DNA of 64,000 bases from Patescibacteria group bacterium (GTDB lineage Bacteria; Patescibacteriota; Patescibacteriia; UBA2196), in NCBI GenBank assembly GCA_028748975.1, contig JAQTPI010000006.1, forward strand, positions 366 to 64,365, written 5' to 3'. A program made the position numbers and the translations under genes. Positions within the stretch are counted from its first letter, which is position 1, and each line of letters opens with the position of its first letter. This document shows positions 40,731 through 55,681 of the stretch, in pieces. The notes under the pieces were generated by a model. The model had not been told where the DNA came from and ran no database searches. It saw only the letters and a list, made by a program, of their open reading frames with translations.

Positions 40731-40983
40731 GTCATCCTGAGCGAAGGTCCGATGGACATCGGACCGGAGTCGAAGGATCTCGTTGTTTTATAAAAAAATA
40801 TAAGGATATAGAGATATAAAGATATAAGCGACCAGCCTGTTATATCCTTATTTCCTTATATCTTTATTATTTATCGCTTTGGCCACGGGATTCCCTGCCT
40901 CGCCTGACGCTCGCCTCGATTCGGCGAAGCGGGCGAGTCAAGGCGGGCTTCCTCTCCCGAGTACTCGGGATCGTCAGGATGAC
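40731..40983. mobile_element. complete MITE-like element (~253 bp) with terminal inverted repeats GTCATCCTGAG / CGTCAGGATGAC
   Basis: The two ends are reverse complements. The interior carries the ATATAAGGATATA palindromic sub-repeat and a GCGAAGCGGGCGAG sub-repeat seen elsewhere. Confidence 0.6.
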
Positions 40984-41950: not shown

Positions 41951-42111
41951 AAAAAAATATGGTGTCATTCTGACCCCGCCAATGCGGGGAGAGAATCTCT
42001 TTGTTTCTGTCTTATCCAGAAACAATTAATTTATAACTTTATTATACACCACTATTTGACAAAAATCCAAAAAAGGACTAAGCTTTTTCTATCATAATTC
42101 ACTCTAACCTG

Positions 42112-46878: not shown

Positions 46879-47088
46879 TCTTCCTCCTTTTTTATTTAGT
46901 TTAAAAGAACCTACACTTAACTTAGCTTATTTTTCTTTTTTTGTCAAAACTATAAATTATTGCTACTATTATTTTATTAATCATTCGCAAAATTCGCCCG
47001 CCTCGACTCGCGTCAGATGCTCGCCTCGATTTAGCGAAGCGGGCAAGTCGACGCGAGGCGGGCCTATGATTCGCAAAATTCGCAATAT

Positions 47089-48261: not shown

Positions 48262-48729
48262 ATGCTCTCTCATTCCCCCTCCCAAACCAAAACCATTGCC
48301 AAAAAACTTGCCTCTCAGTTAAAACCCGGCGCGGTTTTGGCTTTGGTCGGTGATCTCGGCGCCGGCAAAACCCATTTTGTCAAAGGTTTGGCTGAATATT
48401 TTGGCATTAAAAAAAATATTACTTCCCCGACTTTCGTTTTATTGAAAATTTATCCAATAACTAAAGTTTATCCCGAGCGAGCGGAGCGAGCCGAGGGATC
48501 TCGTAATAGAAATAAAATTAAAAAATTAATTCACCTTGACTGCTATCGCCTCAGTCATCCTGACGAACTTCTCGCCATCGGCTTCCGGGAATTTTTACAA
48601 GATAAAAATTGTTTGGTTGTAATTGAATGGGCCGACAAAATCAAAACTCTCTTGCCGAAAAATACCACTTGGCTAAAATTCAGTTTAGGCCAGAAAGAAA
48701 ATGAAAGAAAAATTGAAATCAAAAAATAA
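48262..48729 (+). CDS. tsaE: tRNA threonylcarbamoyladenosine biosynthesis protein TsaE (YjeE), with a ~14-aa in-frame insertion derived from a MITE-like element
   Basis: P-loop GDLGAGKTHFVKG. Start placed at MLSHSP, because upstream is a hairpin repeat. Residues YPERAERAEGSRNR are encoded by the repeat at 48466-48507. Confidence 0.75.
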   Translation: MLSHSPSQTKTIAKKLASQLKPGAVLALVGDLGAGKTHFVKGLAEYFGIKKNITSPTFVLLKIYPITKVYPERAERAEGSRNRNKIKKLIHLDCYRLSHPDELLAIGFREFLQDKNCLVVIEWADKIKTLLPKNTTWLKFSLGQKENERKIEIKK

Positions 48730-50480: not shown

Positions 50481-50641
50481 TTTTGTTGGTTGTCATCCCG
50501 AGGAGTCACGCGACGAGGGATCTCGTAGTAACCCGCTCGGAATATTAAACTAAAGCTAATTTAACCTTATCATTTTAAAACACAAAAATCAAATAAAAAA
50601 GCGGGGCAAACTGAATTGCCACCGCCGTGTTATTTTAACTC

Positions 50642-50965
50642 TTAGCCAGGTAAGATCTCGTGTAATTTTCCGTTCTTAACGCTTAAACTGTGGAGGCCGG
50701 AAAATATCTTTATTTTTTGTTTGTGCCTTTCTTTCAAAAAGAAATTGGTATTGTTTTTTTGGTCCACCTGTATTTTTGCAGTATCTCGACTGCTAATAAT
50801 GAAATCCCCGTCCTTTAGGCGGGCAAAAGGACCCTCCTCTTCCACTTTCAGACGTAGGGGATTTGTTTGAATAACTTCCGCAATATAAGTTCCAATCATT
50901 CCGGTTATCTGAATCACCACATAATCACCAGGATTGGTGGTATACTTTTCGTCCTCATTATTCAT
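50642..50965 (-). CDS. hypothetical protein (107 aa)
   Basis: Intact ORF, no family recognised. Confidence 0.35.
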   Translation of the reverse strand: MNNEDEKYTTNPGDYVVIQITGMIGTYIAEVIQTNPLRLKVEEEGPFARLKDGDFIISSRDTAKIQVDQKNNTNFFLKERHKQKIKIFSGLHSLSVKNGKLHEILPG

Positions 50966-51481
50966 AGCAACCCCTTATTTTTTATTTTCATTTTTTCCTC
51001 TTTACTTCATGATAAAAAATTGTGGTCAAAATGGCGAAATAGCCGTGTTCTGTGTCTGTGGTTTCTGATCTCTGAAACCGCTCCGTAATTTTGATATTAT
51101 TACCCATTTTTGTAAGCCATTTATTTACTTTTCTTTCGTGTGCCGCGGCTTTTCCGTCAGTCTGAAAATATTTTACTTGCTCCATTTTTTCCTCCTTTTG
51201 TGTGATTTTGGCACGATTGCCATTTTTTAATAAAGATCCTTATTCGTCTTAATCCTAACGCACTTATAATTTTATGTCAAAGGATAAAAATACTTGATTT
51301 TTTAATACAAAAATTCTATACTAAAACTTGGGTTTTGTTATTTGCCTGCCCGCTTCGAGTCGCGAAGCGAGTCGGGTGGGTGTTTTGAGCTTTGTTCAAG
51401 CTGGAGTGGCGGAATTGGCCCGCCTCGACTCGCCTCGCTTGTCGAGGCGAGGCGGGTATACCTGCCCGCCATATGCCTTGA

Positions 51482-51563
51482 GCCGGAGTGGTGAAATTGG
51501 CAGACACGCCAGGTTTAGGACCTGGTGCCGAAAGGTTTGTGGGTTCGAGTCCCACCTCCGGCA
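51482..51563 (+). tRNA. tRNA-Leu (anticodon UAG), class II with long variable arm
   Basis: GCCGGAG acceptor, D-arm GUG-AAAUUGGCAGA-CAC, anticodon arm CCAGG-UUUAGGA-CCUGG, variable hairpin, T-arm GUGGG-UUCGAGU-CCCAC, acceptor CUCCGGC, discriminator A. Confidence 0.85.
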
Positions 51564-51803
51564 TAAGGCAAATGGCAGGCAGGCGCGCCCCGCAAATGCG
51601 GGGTTCCCGCAAGGGATTGAGAGTTCGAGTCTCTCCTCCAGCATTAAAAGTTACAGAAATTTTTTATAAATTTCTGTTTTTTTATTTATTTTTTTGCACT
51701 TGACATTAAATATCAACTATGCTAAACTTAAATATTATCGAATTTTCGATAATCCCTGCCACGGGGAACCCGTGGAAATTCAAAATCAAAAAAGGAGGAA
51801 GTT

Positions 51804-52589
51804 ATGAAGGAAAAATTAATAACGGCAGAAGAGCTAAAATCATTGCTTCTGGCGCGTTATCGTATGGATCAAGAAAAAAATGTAAGGTTACAAACACGCC
51901 TCCAACAAGAACTTGGTCAAGAACTTGGTAATGAGGCGCAAAAAGAGGGGCCAGAAGTCGTCGCAATCAATAACAAATTAGCCGACTGGCTCTGTGATAT
52001 AGTTGCTCAGCGCCTCAAACAAAATTGCCATGATGTTCCACTTCTCTCGACTCAAGATCTCGTCAAGTTCGTCCCCGCCATACTTGAAGTTCTTGAGCAA
52101 GGAGAAAACAGCAAACTTGATGATGTAGAACGCAAAAGGTTTGAAAAAACCATGGAAATTGTGTTTAATAACTACCTCGAAATGGTGTTTAGTCTGGTGC
52201 CTGCAGAAAAAAATATTTATGAAGAGTATTGGCGATGGATAGAGATCGTTCTCAAGCTTGCGGCCGAACGCAATGTTCCGCCGACGGAACTTTTCAATCT
52301 TGAAGATACGGCCGACGAAATCACGCGGCAAATGCTCTCTAAAGAACAATTTATCGCTATTTCCAAAAAAGCGGTAGATAAATTCGTTAACGCTGACACT
52401 CTCAAAAAAACTCTCTTCCAACCAACACTCGACGCTCTGGCCGACGGTGACGAACAAGAACGTCAAGAGTTGGAGCAAGAATTTGAAAAAGAAATTATGC
52501 CGCAATTACGTGAGATTGCTGAAAAATCCAACAAAATTATCAAGATTTTTTTTGACGAGGAAACCGCGCGAATTTATACCATAACCTAA
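51804..52589 (+). CDS. hypothetical acidic helical protein (261 aa)
   Basis: RBS AAAGGAGG. Strong intrinsic terminator at 52610-52655. Confidence 0.5.
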   Translation: MKEKLITAEELKSLLLARYRMDQEKNVRLQTRLQQELGQELGNEAQKEGPEVVAINNKLADWLCDIVAQRLKQNCHDVPLLSTQDLVKFVPAILEVLEQGENSKLDDVERKRFEKTMEIVFNNYLEMVFSLVPAEKNIYEEYWRWIEIVLKLAAERNVPPTELFNLEDTADEITRQMLSKEQFIAISKKAVDKFVNADTLKKTLFQPTLDALADGDEQERQELEQEFEKEIMPQLREIAEKSNKIIKIFFDEETARIYTIT

Positions 52590-53246: not shown

Positions 53247-53566
53247 CCCAATAGTTTATCCCGAGCGACCCCGAGTACTTGGGGGAGTCGAGGGATCTCG
53301 TGGTTTGGTAAATTTTATAATAAAGATATAGGGATATAAGGATATATAAAAACAAGAAAAGCCCGCCCGAACGACTGCTGTCGTTCAGTCGGGCGGGCAA
53401 GAAAAAAGTAAAAAACATTTTTGTAAATACCTCACGATCGTGAGGTATTTACAAAATTAAAAATAAAAAAAGTTTGGTTATTTTCGCGGCCGCAATTTTA
53501 ATCAAACTTTTTTAATTTAAAAAAAACAGCCCCAAAGGAATCGTCCTTCGGGGCTTTTTGAAAATT

Positions 53567-55532: not shown

Positions 55533-55681
55533 GTCATTCCGAGCCACGCGCCAGCGGGCGAGGAATCTTGTAGAATACTAACAAATTTTTATTAAATTAT
55601 TGGTTTTATTGAATTATTGGATTATTATTCTCTTTACTCACGAGATCCTTCGTCCTCGCTCTCGCTCGTCCTCAGGATGAC
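55533..55681. mobile_element. complete MITE-like element (~150 bp) with TIRs TGTCATTCCGAG / CTCAGGATGACA
   Basis: The ends are reverse-complementary. Sits between divergent tyrS and the ROK kinase gene and extends both ORF-track calls. Confidence 0.6.

What the first reader, a model, noticed from the sequence alone, without database searches (positions are those of the whole stretch)
51402..51643. tRNA-Leu(UAG) nested between the two halves of a tRNA-like structure with perfectly complementary acceptor arms
GCTGGAGTGGCGGAATTGGC at 51402-51421 looks like the 5' acceptor and D-arm of a class II tRNA (compare GCCGGAGTGGTGAAATTGGCAGAC of the adjacent tRNA-Leu). At 51600-51643 there is a variable-arm-like hairpin (TCCC-GCAA-GGGA), a canonical T-arm GAGAG-TTCGAGT-CTCTC and CTCCAGC-A. 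CTCCAGC is the exact complement of GCTGGAG. Between the halves lie a GC palindrome (CCGCCTCGACTCGCCTCGC...) and the intact tRNA-Leu. The 3' half has a 6-bp/4-nt hairpin (CCCCGC-AAAT-GCGGGG) where an anticodon arm should be, so it is not a normal tRNA. Possibilities are a tRNA gene disrupted by insertion of a repeat plus a tRNA copy, a remnant of an integrase att site duplication, or a tRNA-like regulatory RNA.
Basis: seen in the sequence. Interest (0 to 1): 0.55.

Follow-up and report, generated by a model that had tools for sequence, protein, structure and literature searches.

The report
Broken tRNA gene enclosing its replacement
In this small uncultured (Patescibacteria) bacterium the usual leucine tRNA gene has been split by inserted GC-rich palindromes, one of which holds a second, intact leucine tRNA that now does the job. 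It is an unusual gene fossil, and nothing shows the shell is a new kind of RNA.

Summary
An intact tRNA-Leu(UAG) (51482-51563) lies between two pieces that together form a tRNA-shaped shell.

Relatives explain the shell. At the same position (RuvC / tRNA-Leu / YebC-YraN-TsaE-TsaD), L252 carries one ordinary tRNA-Leu(UAG). L254, the closest relative, shows the same gene's 5' part before its contig ends. With two insertions removed in silico, the shell is collinear with the L252 gene: 27/28 and 39/40 bases are identical outside the anticodon arm.

The shell is therefore the resident tRNA-Leu(UAG) gene. It was broken by:
- a 38-nt REP-like palindrome in the D loop;
- a 123-nt palindrome-bounded insert carrying the inner tRNA;
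- replacement of the anticodon arm by a 16-nt GC hairpin.

A further 36-nt palindrome sits in the leader. The resident promoter and a downstream terminator now most likely express the inner tRNA. The shell cannot decode.

L253 carries a different tRNA-Leu(UAG) followed by a 3' remnant of the resident type. Replacement therefore happened at least twice in this clade.

The att-site and regulatory-RNA options are not. Interest is moderate.

The parts
51294..51322 (+). Sigma-70-like promoter TTGATT-17-TATACT of the resident tRNA-Leu gene; it now most likely drives the whole composite transcript
   Evidence: Consensus scan. The same hexamers and spacer occur upstream of the intact tRNA-Leu in L254 and L252.
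51345..51380 (+). GC-rich palindromic (REP-like) insertion in the 5' leader
   Evidence: A clean 36-nt insertion relative to L254: GTTATTT|...|GTGTTTTGAG. It starts with CCTGCCCGC, the same 9-mer as the left arm of the tRNA-bearing insert (D7).
51400..51418 (+). 5' remnant of the resident tRNA-Leu(UAG): acceptor 5' strand GCTGGAG, U8/G9, D-stem 5' strand and D loop up to GG
   Evidence: Matches L252/L254 GCTGGAGTGGCGGAATTTGG apart from one missing T.
51419..51456 (+). 38-nt REP-like palindrome CCCGCCTCG...CGAGGCGGG inserted in the D loop
   Evidence: Absent from L252/L254 at this point. Related copies with GCCCGCC...GGCGGGC ends lie at 40894-40948, 46996-47063 and 53361-53398.
51457..51461 (+). 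Resident D-loop bases TATAC kept between the two insertions
   Evidence: Collinear with GGTATACGCG of L252/L254.
51462..51584 (+). 123-nt insert: inverted arms 51461-51479 and 51565-51583 (19 positions, 2 mismatches) enclosing the inner tRNA
   Evidence: Inverted repeat I1. Mean pair probability over the arm positions is about 0.94. It is a clean insertion between resident TATAC and GCG.
51482..51563 (+). Intact inner tRNA-Leu(UAG), A73 discriminator, no encoded CCA; taken to be the working gene
   Evidence: ARAGORN. Rfam RF00005 at 57.7 bits against a gathering score of 29. Only 72% identical to the resident type.
51585..51587 (+). Resident D-stem 3' strand GCG
   Evidence: Collinear with L252.
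51588..51603 (+). GC hairpin CCCCGC-AAAT-GCGGGG in place of the 17-nt anticodon arm
   Evidence: L252/L254 have CATGGCTTAGGACCATG here. A near-copy, CCCCGCCAATGCGGGG, lies at 41974-41989.
51604..51643 (+). 3' remnant of the resident tRNA-Leu(UAG): variable arm, T arm, acceptor 3' strand CTCCAGC, discriminator A
   Evidence: 39/40 identical to L252 over 51604-51643. blastn over 51603-51643 gives 40/41, E = 1e-14.
51653..51684 (+). Intrinsic-terminator-like hairpin ACAGAAATTT/AAATTTCTGT followed by a T run
   Evidence: Inverted repeat I10; sequence. A similar hairpin precedes the homologue of the 261-aa gene in L083.

Best explanation
The outer 'tRNA-like structure' is the resident, syntenic tRNA-Leu(UAG) gene of this Patescibacteria lineage, broken in place.

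Three clean insertions of GC-rich palindromic DNA landed in its transcription unit: 36 nt in the leader, 38 nt in the D loop, and 123 nt at the 3' end of the D loop. Its anticodon arm was also swapped for a 16-nt GC hairpin. The 123-nt insert is bounded by 19-nt inverted arms and carries a complete, sequence-divergent tRNA-Leu(UAG).

Inferred working. The old promoter (51294-51322) makes one precursor of about 350 nt that ends at the terminator (51653-51684). RNase P and a 3' processing nuclease release the inner tRNA, and the CCA-adding enzyme completes it because no CCA is encoded. The inner tRNA then decodes in place of the destroyed resident tRNA.

The shell keeps a perfect acceptor stem and T arm because it descends from a real tRNA and has had little time to decay. 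With a 6-nt or 4-nt loop in place of the anticodon loop and 161 nt inserted in its D loop, it cannot decode.

Shown: the homology, the insertion boundaries, the intact state in relatives, and an independent replacement in L253. Inferred: the transcript limits, the processing steps, and that the shell has no function.
For: Synteny. RuvC / tRNA-Leu(UAG) / promoter / YebC / YraN / TsaE / TsaD is kept in L252 and L253; L254 shows the same arrangement from the tRNA through YebC and YraN (versus for the window).

Intact orthologue. L252 has a normal 85-nt tRNA-Leu(UAG). L254, the closest relative (YebC 88.7% identical), has the same promoter, leader and 5' part up to the anticodon arm, without any palindrome.

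Collinearity. Removing 51419-51456 and 51462-51584 in silico gives an 83-nt sequence collinear with L252. It matches 27/28 and 39/40 bases outside the anticodon arm. ARAGORN then calls it 'tRNA-???' with a two-base anticodon, that is a 6-nt loop.

Divergence of the inner gene. It is only 72% identical to the resident type.

Polarity. On YebC pairwise identities the window pairs with L254 (88.7%), while L252 is no more than 80% identical to any other member of the clade and L253 groups with other sequences. On that reading the intact type is ancestral.

Independent replacement. L253 has a different tRNA-Leu(UAG) followed 8 nt later by a 3' remnant of the resident type.

Repeat family. The palindromes recur in intergenic DNA of the window.

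Expression signals and assembly. Promoter and terminator bracket the composite. A Logan contig made by a separate assembler, probably from the same sample, confirms the sequence from the inner T arm through the outer 3' half, 161/161 bases.
Against: The shell is unusually well preserved. It shows 1 substitution and 1 single-base deletion in 67 nt, while four-fold degenerate sites of yebC differ by 38% between the window and L254. If the shell had been neutral for the whole branch, about 18 changes would be expected. A recent event explains this (about a 1-in-6 chance under uniform timing, my estimate), but constraint is not excluded.

The anticodon arm was replaced by a hairpin of almost the same length, which keeps a cloverleaf outline. 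For a pure relic this is a coincidence.

Only 64 kb of the genome is visible, so I cannot show that the inner gene is the only tRNA-Leu(UAG).

L254's contig ends inside the tRNA, so its 3' half is unseen.

There are no expression data.
Confidence: 0.8

Rival explanations
1. Self-complementing mobile cassette. The 123-nt insert is a member of the palindromic repeat family that carries a tRNA-Leu(UAG) as cargo and tends to land in the resident tRNA-Leu gene. The damage it causes is repaired by its own cargo. The shell is still a relic, but the event is a directed, recurrent process rather than an accident.
For: The insertion is clean, with no loss of resident bases. Its 19-nt inverted ends begin with CCTGCCCGCC and end with GGCAGGCAGG, which contain the family's end motif GCCCGCC / GGCGGGC with one mismatch. 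The leader palindrome starts with the same 9-mer. Two other lineages show a foreign tRNA-Leu(UAG) next to remnants of a GCTGGAG-type gene: L253 and L247. L247 has a CCTGCC...GGCAGG hairpin at the same D-loop position.
Against: Only one copy of the arms is found in the window, and none of the fetched loci matches the insert's left arm or trailing sequence, apart from the window's own Logan contig L001. The breakpoints differ between lineages: D loop here, variable/T-arm junction in L253, after the D arm in L247. The three incoming tRNAs and their flanks are only 70-78% alike. GCCCGCC is a common 7-mer here (19 copies against 9 expected). No transposase was seen nearby. L247 was found through a pattern that forced the 5' half to match, and its contig looks error-prone.
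Confidence: 0.2
2. The shell is kept because it works as a tRNA-like scaffold. An acceptor/T-arm minihelix would give RNase P, RNase Z and the CCA enzyme entry points at 51400 and 51643. It would protect or chaperone the long precursor, or yield a non-decoding tRNA-like RNA in one or two pieces that LeuRS could still charge.
For: The acceptor stem (7/7), T stem (5/5), T loop and variable arm are perfect. The outer acceptor stem has pair probability 0.99 in the 244-nt RNA and about 0.6 in the full transcript. The anticodon arm is replaced by a hairpin of like size. Few changes have accumulated despite 38% divergence at silent sites from the sister lineage. From established knowledge: bacterial LeuRS does not read the anticodon, and A73 is a leucine identity element.
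Against: The composite is not conserved: the sister lineage L254 and the more distant L252 have the plain gene. There is no covariation to test. The preservation is compatible with a recent event. In the full transcript the leader palindrome competes with the outer 5' half. In L253 and L247 only one remnant survives, so the closed shell is not required.
Confidence: 0.1
3. Leftover of site-specific integration (att duplication) by an integrase-bearing element that has since been lost.
For: From general knowledge, tRNA genes are common integration sites. The locus has lineage-specific genes on both sides: the 107-aa and 65-aa ORFs, and the 261-aa ORF. Homologues of the 261-aa gene lie next to various tRNA genes elsewhere.
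Against: Integration duplicates one tRNA segment as a direct repeat. Here the two halves are the complementary 5' and 3' parts of one gene, with nothing duplicated. The insert is 123 nt. No integrase domain was found among the predicted proteins scanned between 47.1 and 59.3 kb.
Confidence: 0.02
4. Assembly chimera of two strains that carry different tRNA-Leu(UAG) genes at this locus.
For: The window is from a metagenome-assembled genome. Logan contigs of this and related organisms break inside the tRNA.
Against: The outer and inner genes share no exact stretch longer than about 11 nt, which is too short for a de Bruijn switch. Four junctions within 250 nt would all have to be artefacts. A contig from a separate assembler reproduces the 3' junctions, 161/161 bases. 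The palindromes are separate insertions that a strain mix does not explain.
Confidence: 0.03

Closest known systems
tRNA pseudogenes and disrupted tRNA genes; tRNA genes interrupted by insertion elements (general knowledge)
   Same: A once-functional tRNA gene is interrupted and left as recognisable halves, while the function is supplied by another copy.
   Different: The replacement copy sits inside the broken gene and uses its promoter. The interrupting DNA is short palindromes, not an IS element or an island. I found no report of a tRNA gene nested in a tRNA gene: a full-text search gave only a tRNA-Sec inside selB (PMC8124441).
REP / BIME-type repetitive extragenic palindromes and MITE-like elements of bacteria
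   Same: Short GC-rich imperfect palindromes with conserved ends and variable centres, dispersed in intergenic DNA and inserted cleanly.
   Different: They occur here in a roughly 42% GC Patescibacteria genome and lie inside an RNA gene, and one carries a whole tRNA between its arms. No RAYT/TnpA partner was looked for beyond the scanned neighbourhood (47.1-59.3 kb). Family membership was not tested against known REP classes.
Archaeal intron-containing, split and permuted tRNA genes (e.g. PMC4033280, PMC4390854, listed)
   Same: tRNA coding sequence is interrupted at a non-canonical position (D loop), and the halves can pair through the acceptor stem.
   Different: Those are functional genes rejoined by a splicing endonuclease at bulge-helix-bulge motifs. 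This genome is bacterial, the inserts appear as ordinary hairpins in the predicted fold, the anticodon loop is destroyed, and relatives have the uninterrupted gene.
Group I introns in bacterial tRNA-Leu genes (e.g. 10.1101/2020.01.27.920355, listed)
   Same: An intervening sequence lies inside a bacterial tRNA-Leu gene.
   Different: Those introns sit in the anticodon loop and have a catalytic core. No Intron_gpI match was found here even at E <= 10, and the insert is in the D loop.
Genomic-island integration at tRNA genes with restoration of the tRNA by the element (general knowledge)
   Same: Incoming DNA lands in a tRNA gene and brings the sequence needed to keep that tRNA function.
   Different: Islands supply only the displaced 3' segment, leave a direct repeat and encode an integrase. 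Here a whole independent tRNA is supplied, nothing is duplicated and no integrase is present.

Membership tests
tRNA (Rfam RF00005 / ARAGORN) - inner gene 51482-51563 | Contiguous cloverleaf scoring above the family threshold, with a 7-nt anticodon loop | tested here: met
   57.7 bits against a gathering score of 29. ARAGORN calls tRNA-Leu(tag).
tRNA - outer structure 51400-51643 | Contiguous cloverleaf detectable by tRNA models | tested here: not met
   No ARAGORN call. No Rfam tRNA hit for the outer structure even at E <= 10.
tRNA - outer structure with the inserts removed in silico | 7-nt anticodon loop with U33 and a three-base anticodon | tested here: not met
   ARAGORN returns 'tRNA-???' with a two-base anticodon, that is a 6-nt loop. 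The MFE fold closes it as a 7-bp stem with a 4-nt loop.
Disrupted orthologue (pseudogene) of the resident tRNA-Leu(UAG) | Collinear with an intact gene at the syntenic position in relatives | tested here: met
   Synteny. Matches of 27/28 and 39/40 bases outside the anticodon arm. blastn 40/41 and 35/37.
Disrupted orthologue (pseudogene) of the resident tRNA-Leu(UAG) | Loss of function, shown by no mature product | not testable with these tools
   Needs RNA data. Inferred only from the destroyed anticodon loop and the 161 nt inserted in the D loop.
REP-like palindromic repeat family | Several dispersed intergenic copies with shared ends and hairpin potential | tested here: met
   Copies at 40894-40948, 46996-47063, 51345-51380, 51419-51456 and 53361-53398. 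The search motif occurred 15 times against 3 expected.
REP-like palindromic repeat family | Cognate RAYT / IS200-IS605-type transposase in the genome | not tested
   Only the predicted proteins between 47.1 and 59.3 kb were scanned. The rest of the genome is not available.
Integrase att-site duplication at a tRNA gene | Direct repeat of the same tRNA segment flanking the inserted DNA, with an integrase in the element | tested here: not met
   The halves are complementary parts of one gene with no duplicated segment. No integrase domain nearby.
Group I intron in tRNA-Leu | Catalytic core, with insertion in the anticodon loop | tested here: not met
   No Intron_gpI hit at E <= 10. The inserts lie in the D loop.
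Archaeal-type BHB intron or split tRNA | Bulge-helix-bulge motif at the exon/insert junctions | tested here: not met
   In the predicted fold the inserts emerge as separate hairpins from a multiloop. The gene neighbourhood is bacterial: RuvC, TsaE, PBP.
tmRNA (tRNA-like domain formed by the 5' and 3' ends) | ARAGORN/Rfam tmRNA call, G3:U70 alanine identity pair, tag reading frame | tested here: not met
   No tmRNA call. Pair 3:70 is T-A.

The most novel reading that the evidence does not exclude
In this Patescibacteria clade, tRNA-Leu(UAG) genes are repeatedly overwritten by palindrome-bounded mini-cassettes that carry their own tRNA-Leu(UAG) and insert into the resident gene. This would be a self-complementing 'invade and replace' element, and so a previously undescribed way for tRNA genes to move and turn over. 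The window (both remnants kept), L253 (3' remnant only) and L247 (5' remnant only) would be three snapshots of the same process.
Probability: 0.15. Interest if true: 0.7.

Novelty: new variant of a known kind. Interest (0 to 1): 0.4.

Why it matters
The finding shows how an essential single-copy tRNA gene in a tiny genome can be destroyed without loss of function, because the destroying DNA carries a substitute that takes over the old promoter.

It also documents short GC-rich palindromes inserting into an RNA gene in a Patescibacteria genome. The same tRNA-Leu(UAG) locus was replaced independently in a related lineage, which marks it as a hot spot of tRNA turnover.

Practically, the shell is a trap for annotation. 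Split-tRNA or tRNA-like RNA searches would flag it, and its perfect stems could be mistaken for evidence of function.

If the cassette reading were right, it would add a new class of small mobile element with a tRNA cargo.

Tried and rejected

(2) Homologues of the 261-aa downstream gene and their contigs gave no synteny. The gene sits beside tRNA-Ile, Leu(CAA) or Ala genes, or no tRNA at all.

(3) A nested-specific pattern (inner 3' end, 40-70 nt, outer 3' end) found nothing in the metagenome collection.

(4) A degenerate T-arm/acceptor pattern in viral contigs hit many unrelated tRNAs (Thr, Met, Leu) and was too unspecific to use on metagenomes.

(5) Viral scans for the insert's trailing sequence, the inner anticodon arm and the resident variable/T arm were all empty. 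A phage origin therefore has no support.

(6) The phage database matched only the inner tRNA, as a generic tRNA-Leu.

(7) A low-threshold Rfam scan of the locus gave only noise besides the inner tRNA.

(8) Selenocysteine tRNA, tmRNA and a split decoding tRNA were considered from the sequence and dropped. The acceptor stem is 7 bp, pair 3:70 is T-A, and there is no usable anticodon loop.

(9) I first read the D-arm-like pairing GGCGG/CCGCC as a native D arm. Its 3' strand is in fact the first bases of the inserted palindrome.

Full report
WHAT IS THERE

The window comes from a Patescibacteria (CPR) metagenome-assembled genome. The gene downstream of the locus is identical to NCBI PHT40_03065, 'Patescibacteria group bacterium'.

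ARAGORN and Rfam find one tRNA at the locus, tRNA-Leu(UAG) at 51482-51563, scoring 57.7 bits.

The 244-nt stretch 51400-51643 folds as a cloverleaf inside a cloverleaf-like shell at -146.4 kcal/mol. The 242-nt version scores z = -8.9 against shuffles. The shell has these parts:
- a 7-bp outer acceptor stem;
- a GC palindrome;
- a 19-position stem with 2 mismatches that carries the inner tRNA at its tip;
- two small hairpins;
- a canonical T arm.

A promoter-like site (TTGATT-17-TATACT, 51294-51322) and a terminator-like hairpin with a T run (51653-51684) bracket the whole. Neither tRNA finder calls the outer structure, even at E <= 10.

FINDING RELATIVES

Several routes failed and are listed under Tried and rejected. 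The route that worked was a protein search with YebC, the gene about 0.9 kb away. It returned relatives at 77-89% identity, and I fetched their contigs.

The gene order RuvC / tRNA-Leu(UAG) / promoter / YebC / YraN / TsaE / TsaD is kept in L252 and L253. L254 shows the tRNA, YebC and YraN part of it (the window's genes are).

L252 has an ordinary 85-nt tRNA-Leu(UAG): GCTGGAGTGGCGGAATTTGGTATACGCGCATGGCTTAGGACCATGTTCCCGCAAGGGATTGAGAGTTCAAGTCTCTCCTCCAGCA.

L254 is the closest relative, with YebC 88.7% identical. It has the same promoter, the same leader and the same tRNA 5' part up to the anticodon arm, where its contig ends.

THE SHELL IS THE RESIDENT GENE

The window's outer halves are this gene. 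Deleting 51419-51456 and 51462-51584 in silico leaves 83 nt collinear with L252. The match is 27/28 bases for the 5' part and 39/40 for the 3' part. Only the 17-nt anticodon arm (CATGG-CTTAGGA-CCATG) differs, replaced by the 16-nt hairpin CCCCGC-AAAT-GCGGGG. blastn gives 40/41 for the 3' part against L252 and 35/37 for leader plus 5' half against L254.

ARAGORN calls the reconstruction 'tRNA-???' with a two-base anticodon. It becomes tRNA-Leu(tag) when L252's anticodon arm is put back.

The inner tRNA is only 72% identical to the resident type. It is therefore a different gene and not a recent copy.

WHAT BROKE IT

Compared with the relatives, the window has three clean insertions:
- 36 nt in the leader (51345-51380);
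- 38 nt in the D loop (51419-51456);
- 123 nt between the resident D-loop bases TATAC and the D-stem strand GCG (51462-51584).

All three are GC-rich palindromes. Similar elements with GCCCGCC...GGCGGGC ends and variable centres lie in other intergenic regions, at 40894-40948, 46996-47063 and 53361-53398. A near-copy of the hairpin that replaces the anticodon arm is at 41974-41989.

The arms of the 123-nt insert begin CCTGCCCGCC and end GGCAGGCAGG. They therefore contain the family's end motif with one mismatch, and the leader palindrome starts with the same 9-mer. This suggests, but does not prove, that the tRNA-bearing insert belongs to the same repeat family. The 7-mer itself is common here, with 19 copies against 9 expected.

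POLARITY AND RECURRENCE

On YebC pairwise identities the window pairs with L254. L253 groups with other sequences, and L252 is no more than 80% identical to any of them. On that reading the plain GCTGGAG-type gene, seen in L252 and (5' part) in L254, is ancestral, and the window's state is derived after the split from L254.

L253 has a different tRNA-Leu(UAG), with acceptor GCCGGGA. It is followed 8 nt later by a 3' remnant of the resident type, ATTGAGAGTT[22-nt double hairpin]CAAGTCTCTCCTCCAGCA. That is a second, independent replacement.

A metagenome contig found with the 5'-half pattern (L247) shows the mirror case. It has an orphan GCTGGAG-type 5' half with a CCTGCC...GGCAGG hairpin in its D loop, 16 nt upstream of an intact tRNA-Leu(UAG). 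That contig is short, looks error-prone, and was selected by the pattern itself, so I give it little weight.

HOW IT MOST LIKELY WORKS

This section is inference. The resident promoter makes one long precursor. RNase P and a 3' nuclease release the inner tRNA, and CCA is added because neither gene encodes it. The inner tRNA replaces the destroyed one.

The shell cannot decode. Its perfect stems are inherited. It has 1 substitution and 1 single-base deletion in 67 nt, whereas four-fold degenerate sites of yebC differ by 38% from L254. By my estimate this means about 18 changes if the shell had been neutral for the whole branch, and a chance of roughly 1 in 6 of seeing 2 or fewer if the event fell at a random time. 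So the event is recent or the shell is constrained, and the data do not decide which.

Predicted pairing of the outer acceptor stem is 0.99 in the 244-nt RNA but about 0.6 in the full transcript. There the leader palindrome can pair with the D-loop palindrome instead.

RIVALS

- A functional tRNA-like scaffold is not excluded, but the composite is absent from the closest relatives.
- An att-site remnant is contradicted by the collinearity and by the absence of an integrase.
- A chimeric assembly is unlikely. The two genes share no long exact words, and a contig from a separate assembler reproduces the 3' junctions.
- A mobile tRNA-carrying cassette is the most interesting reading still open. 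The differing breakpoints and the unrelated flanks in the three lineages argue against a site-specific process.

COMPARISON WITH WHAT IS KNOWN

The pieces are all known kinds: a tRNA pseudogene, REP-like palindromes, and a tRNA locus as a hot spot. The arrangement, a working tRNA gene nested in the D loop of the orthologue it replaces and using its promoter, is one I could not find described. I file it as a new variant of a known kind, of moderate interest.

Noticed in passing
L253:2905-3047 (minus strand): A different tRNA-Leu(UAG) (acceptor GCCGGGA) is followed 8 nt later by a 3' remnant of the GCTGGAG-type tRNA. The remnant's T loop holds a 22-nt insert that looks like two copies of a variable-arm-like hairpin (TCCCAAAGGGA, TCCCTTCGGGA). 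A methyltransferase gene lies between this and RuvC.
   Followed up: partly
L247:1508-1650: An orphan 5' half GCTGGAGTGGTGAAATTGGCAGA, then hairpin CCTGCCTACCGCAGGCAGG, then CAC, lies 16 nt upstream of an intact tRNA-Leu(UAG). The hairpin has the same stem sequence and the same D-loop position as the arms of the window's tRNA-bearing insert. The contig's ORFs look frameshifted.
   Followed up: partly
window 50642-51185 and 51804-52589: Three ORFs without family matches (107 aa, 65 aa, 261 aa) flank the tRNA locus and are absent from the same interval in L252 and L254. L253 has a methyltransferase there instead. The tRNA-Leu locus is a general hot spot of gene gain.
   Followed up: partly
L082:2762-2870 and L083:2739-2850: Homologues of the 261-aa gene lie downstream of different tRNA genes (Ile-UAU, Leu-CAA, Ala). 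In L082 and L083 the tRNA's CCA end is followed by a shared module of about 100 nt (CGTWGGAAA...GCTCGGCGACCAAAT...). Rfam, run on the L083 copy only, found no match. This may be the edge of a tRNA-targeting element or an unknown RNA.
   Followed up: partly
window 50492-50522 (minus strand is the yebC leader); L252:4950-5000: A conserved GC-rich hairpin (GATCCCTCGTCGCGYGACTCCTCGGGATGAC) lies just upstream of the yebC start codon in both the window and L252.
   Followed up: no
window 53258-53305, 40950-40975, 2023-2066, 48471-48505, 55533-55571: A second family of GC-rich palindromes built on TCCCGAG...CGAGGGATC / GTCATCC motifs is scattered through the window, partly inside predicted ORFs.
   Followed up: no
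window 41974-41989: Hairpin CCCCGCCAATGCGGGG is a one-mismatch copy of the hairpin that replaces the outer anticodon arm. It lies near the start of a minus-strand ORF.
   Followed up: no
L254:1 and L255:1: Logan contigs from two different sequencing runs both end at exactly the same base, just after the anticodon stem of the intact tRNA-Leu(UAG). This suggests a graph branch (strain variants or a repeated 3' half) at that point in those samples.
   Followed up: no
L134, L138, L139, L142, L144, L147, L183, L202, L209, L222, L237, L239, L242, L243: About 14 of the 120 metagenome hits to the 5'-half pattern are tRNA-Leu(CAA) 5' parts that stop at or just after the anticodon arm and continue into unrelated sequence. 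They are likely att sites of integrated elements or introns in other bacteria (several contig series are shared with normal copies).
   Followed up: no
window 51653-51684 and L083:2868-2900: The terminator hairpin after the outer 3' end (ACAGAAATTT...AAATTTCTGT) resembles the hairpin upstream of the 261-aa homologue in L083. The terminator may have arrived together with that gene.
   Followed up: no
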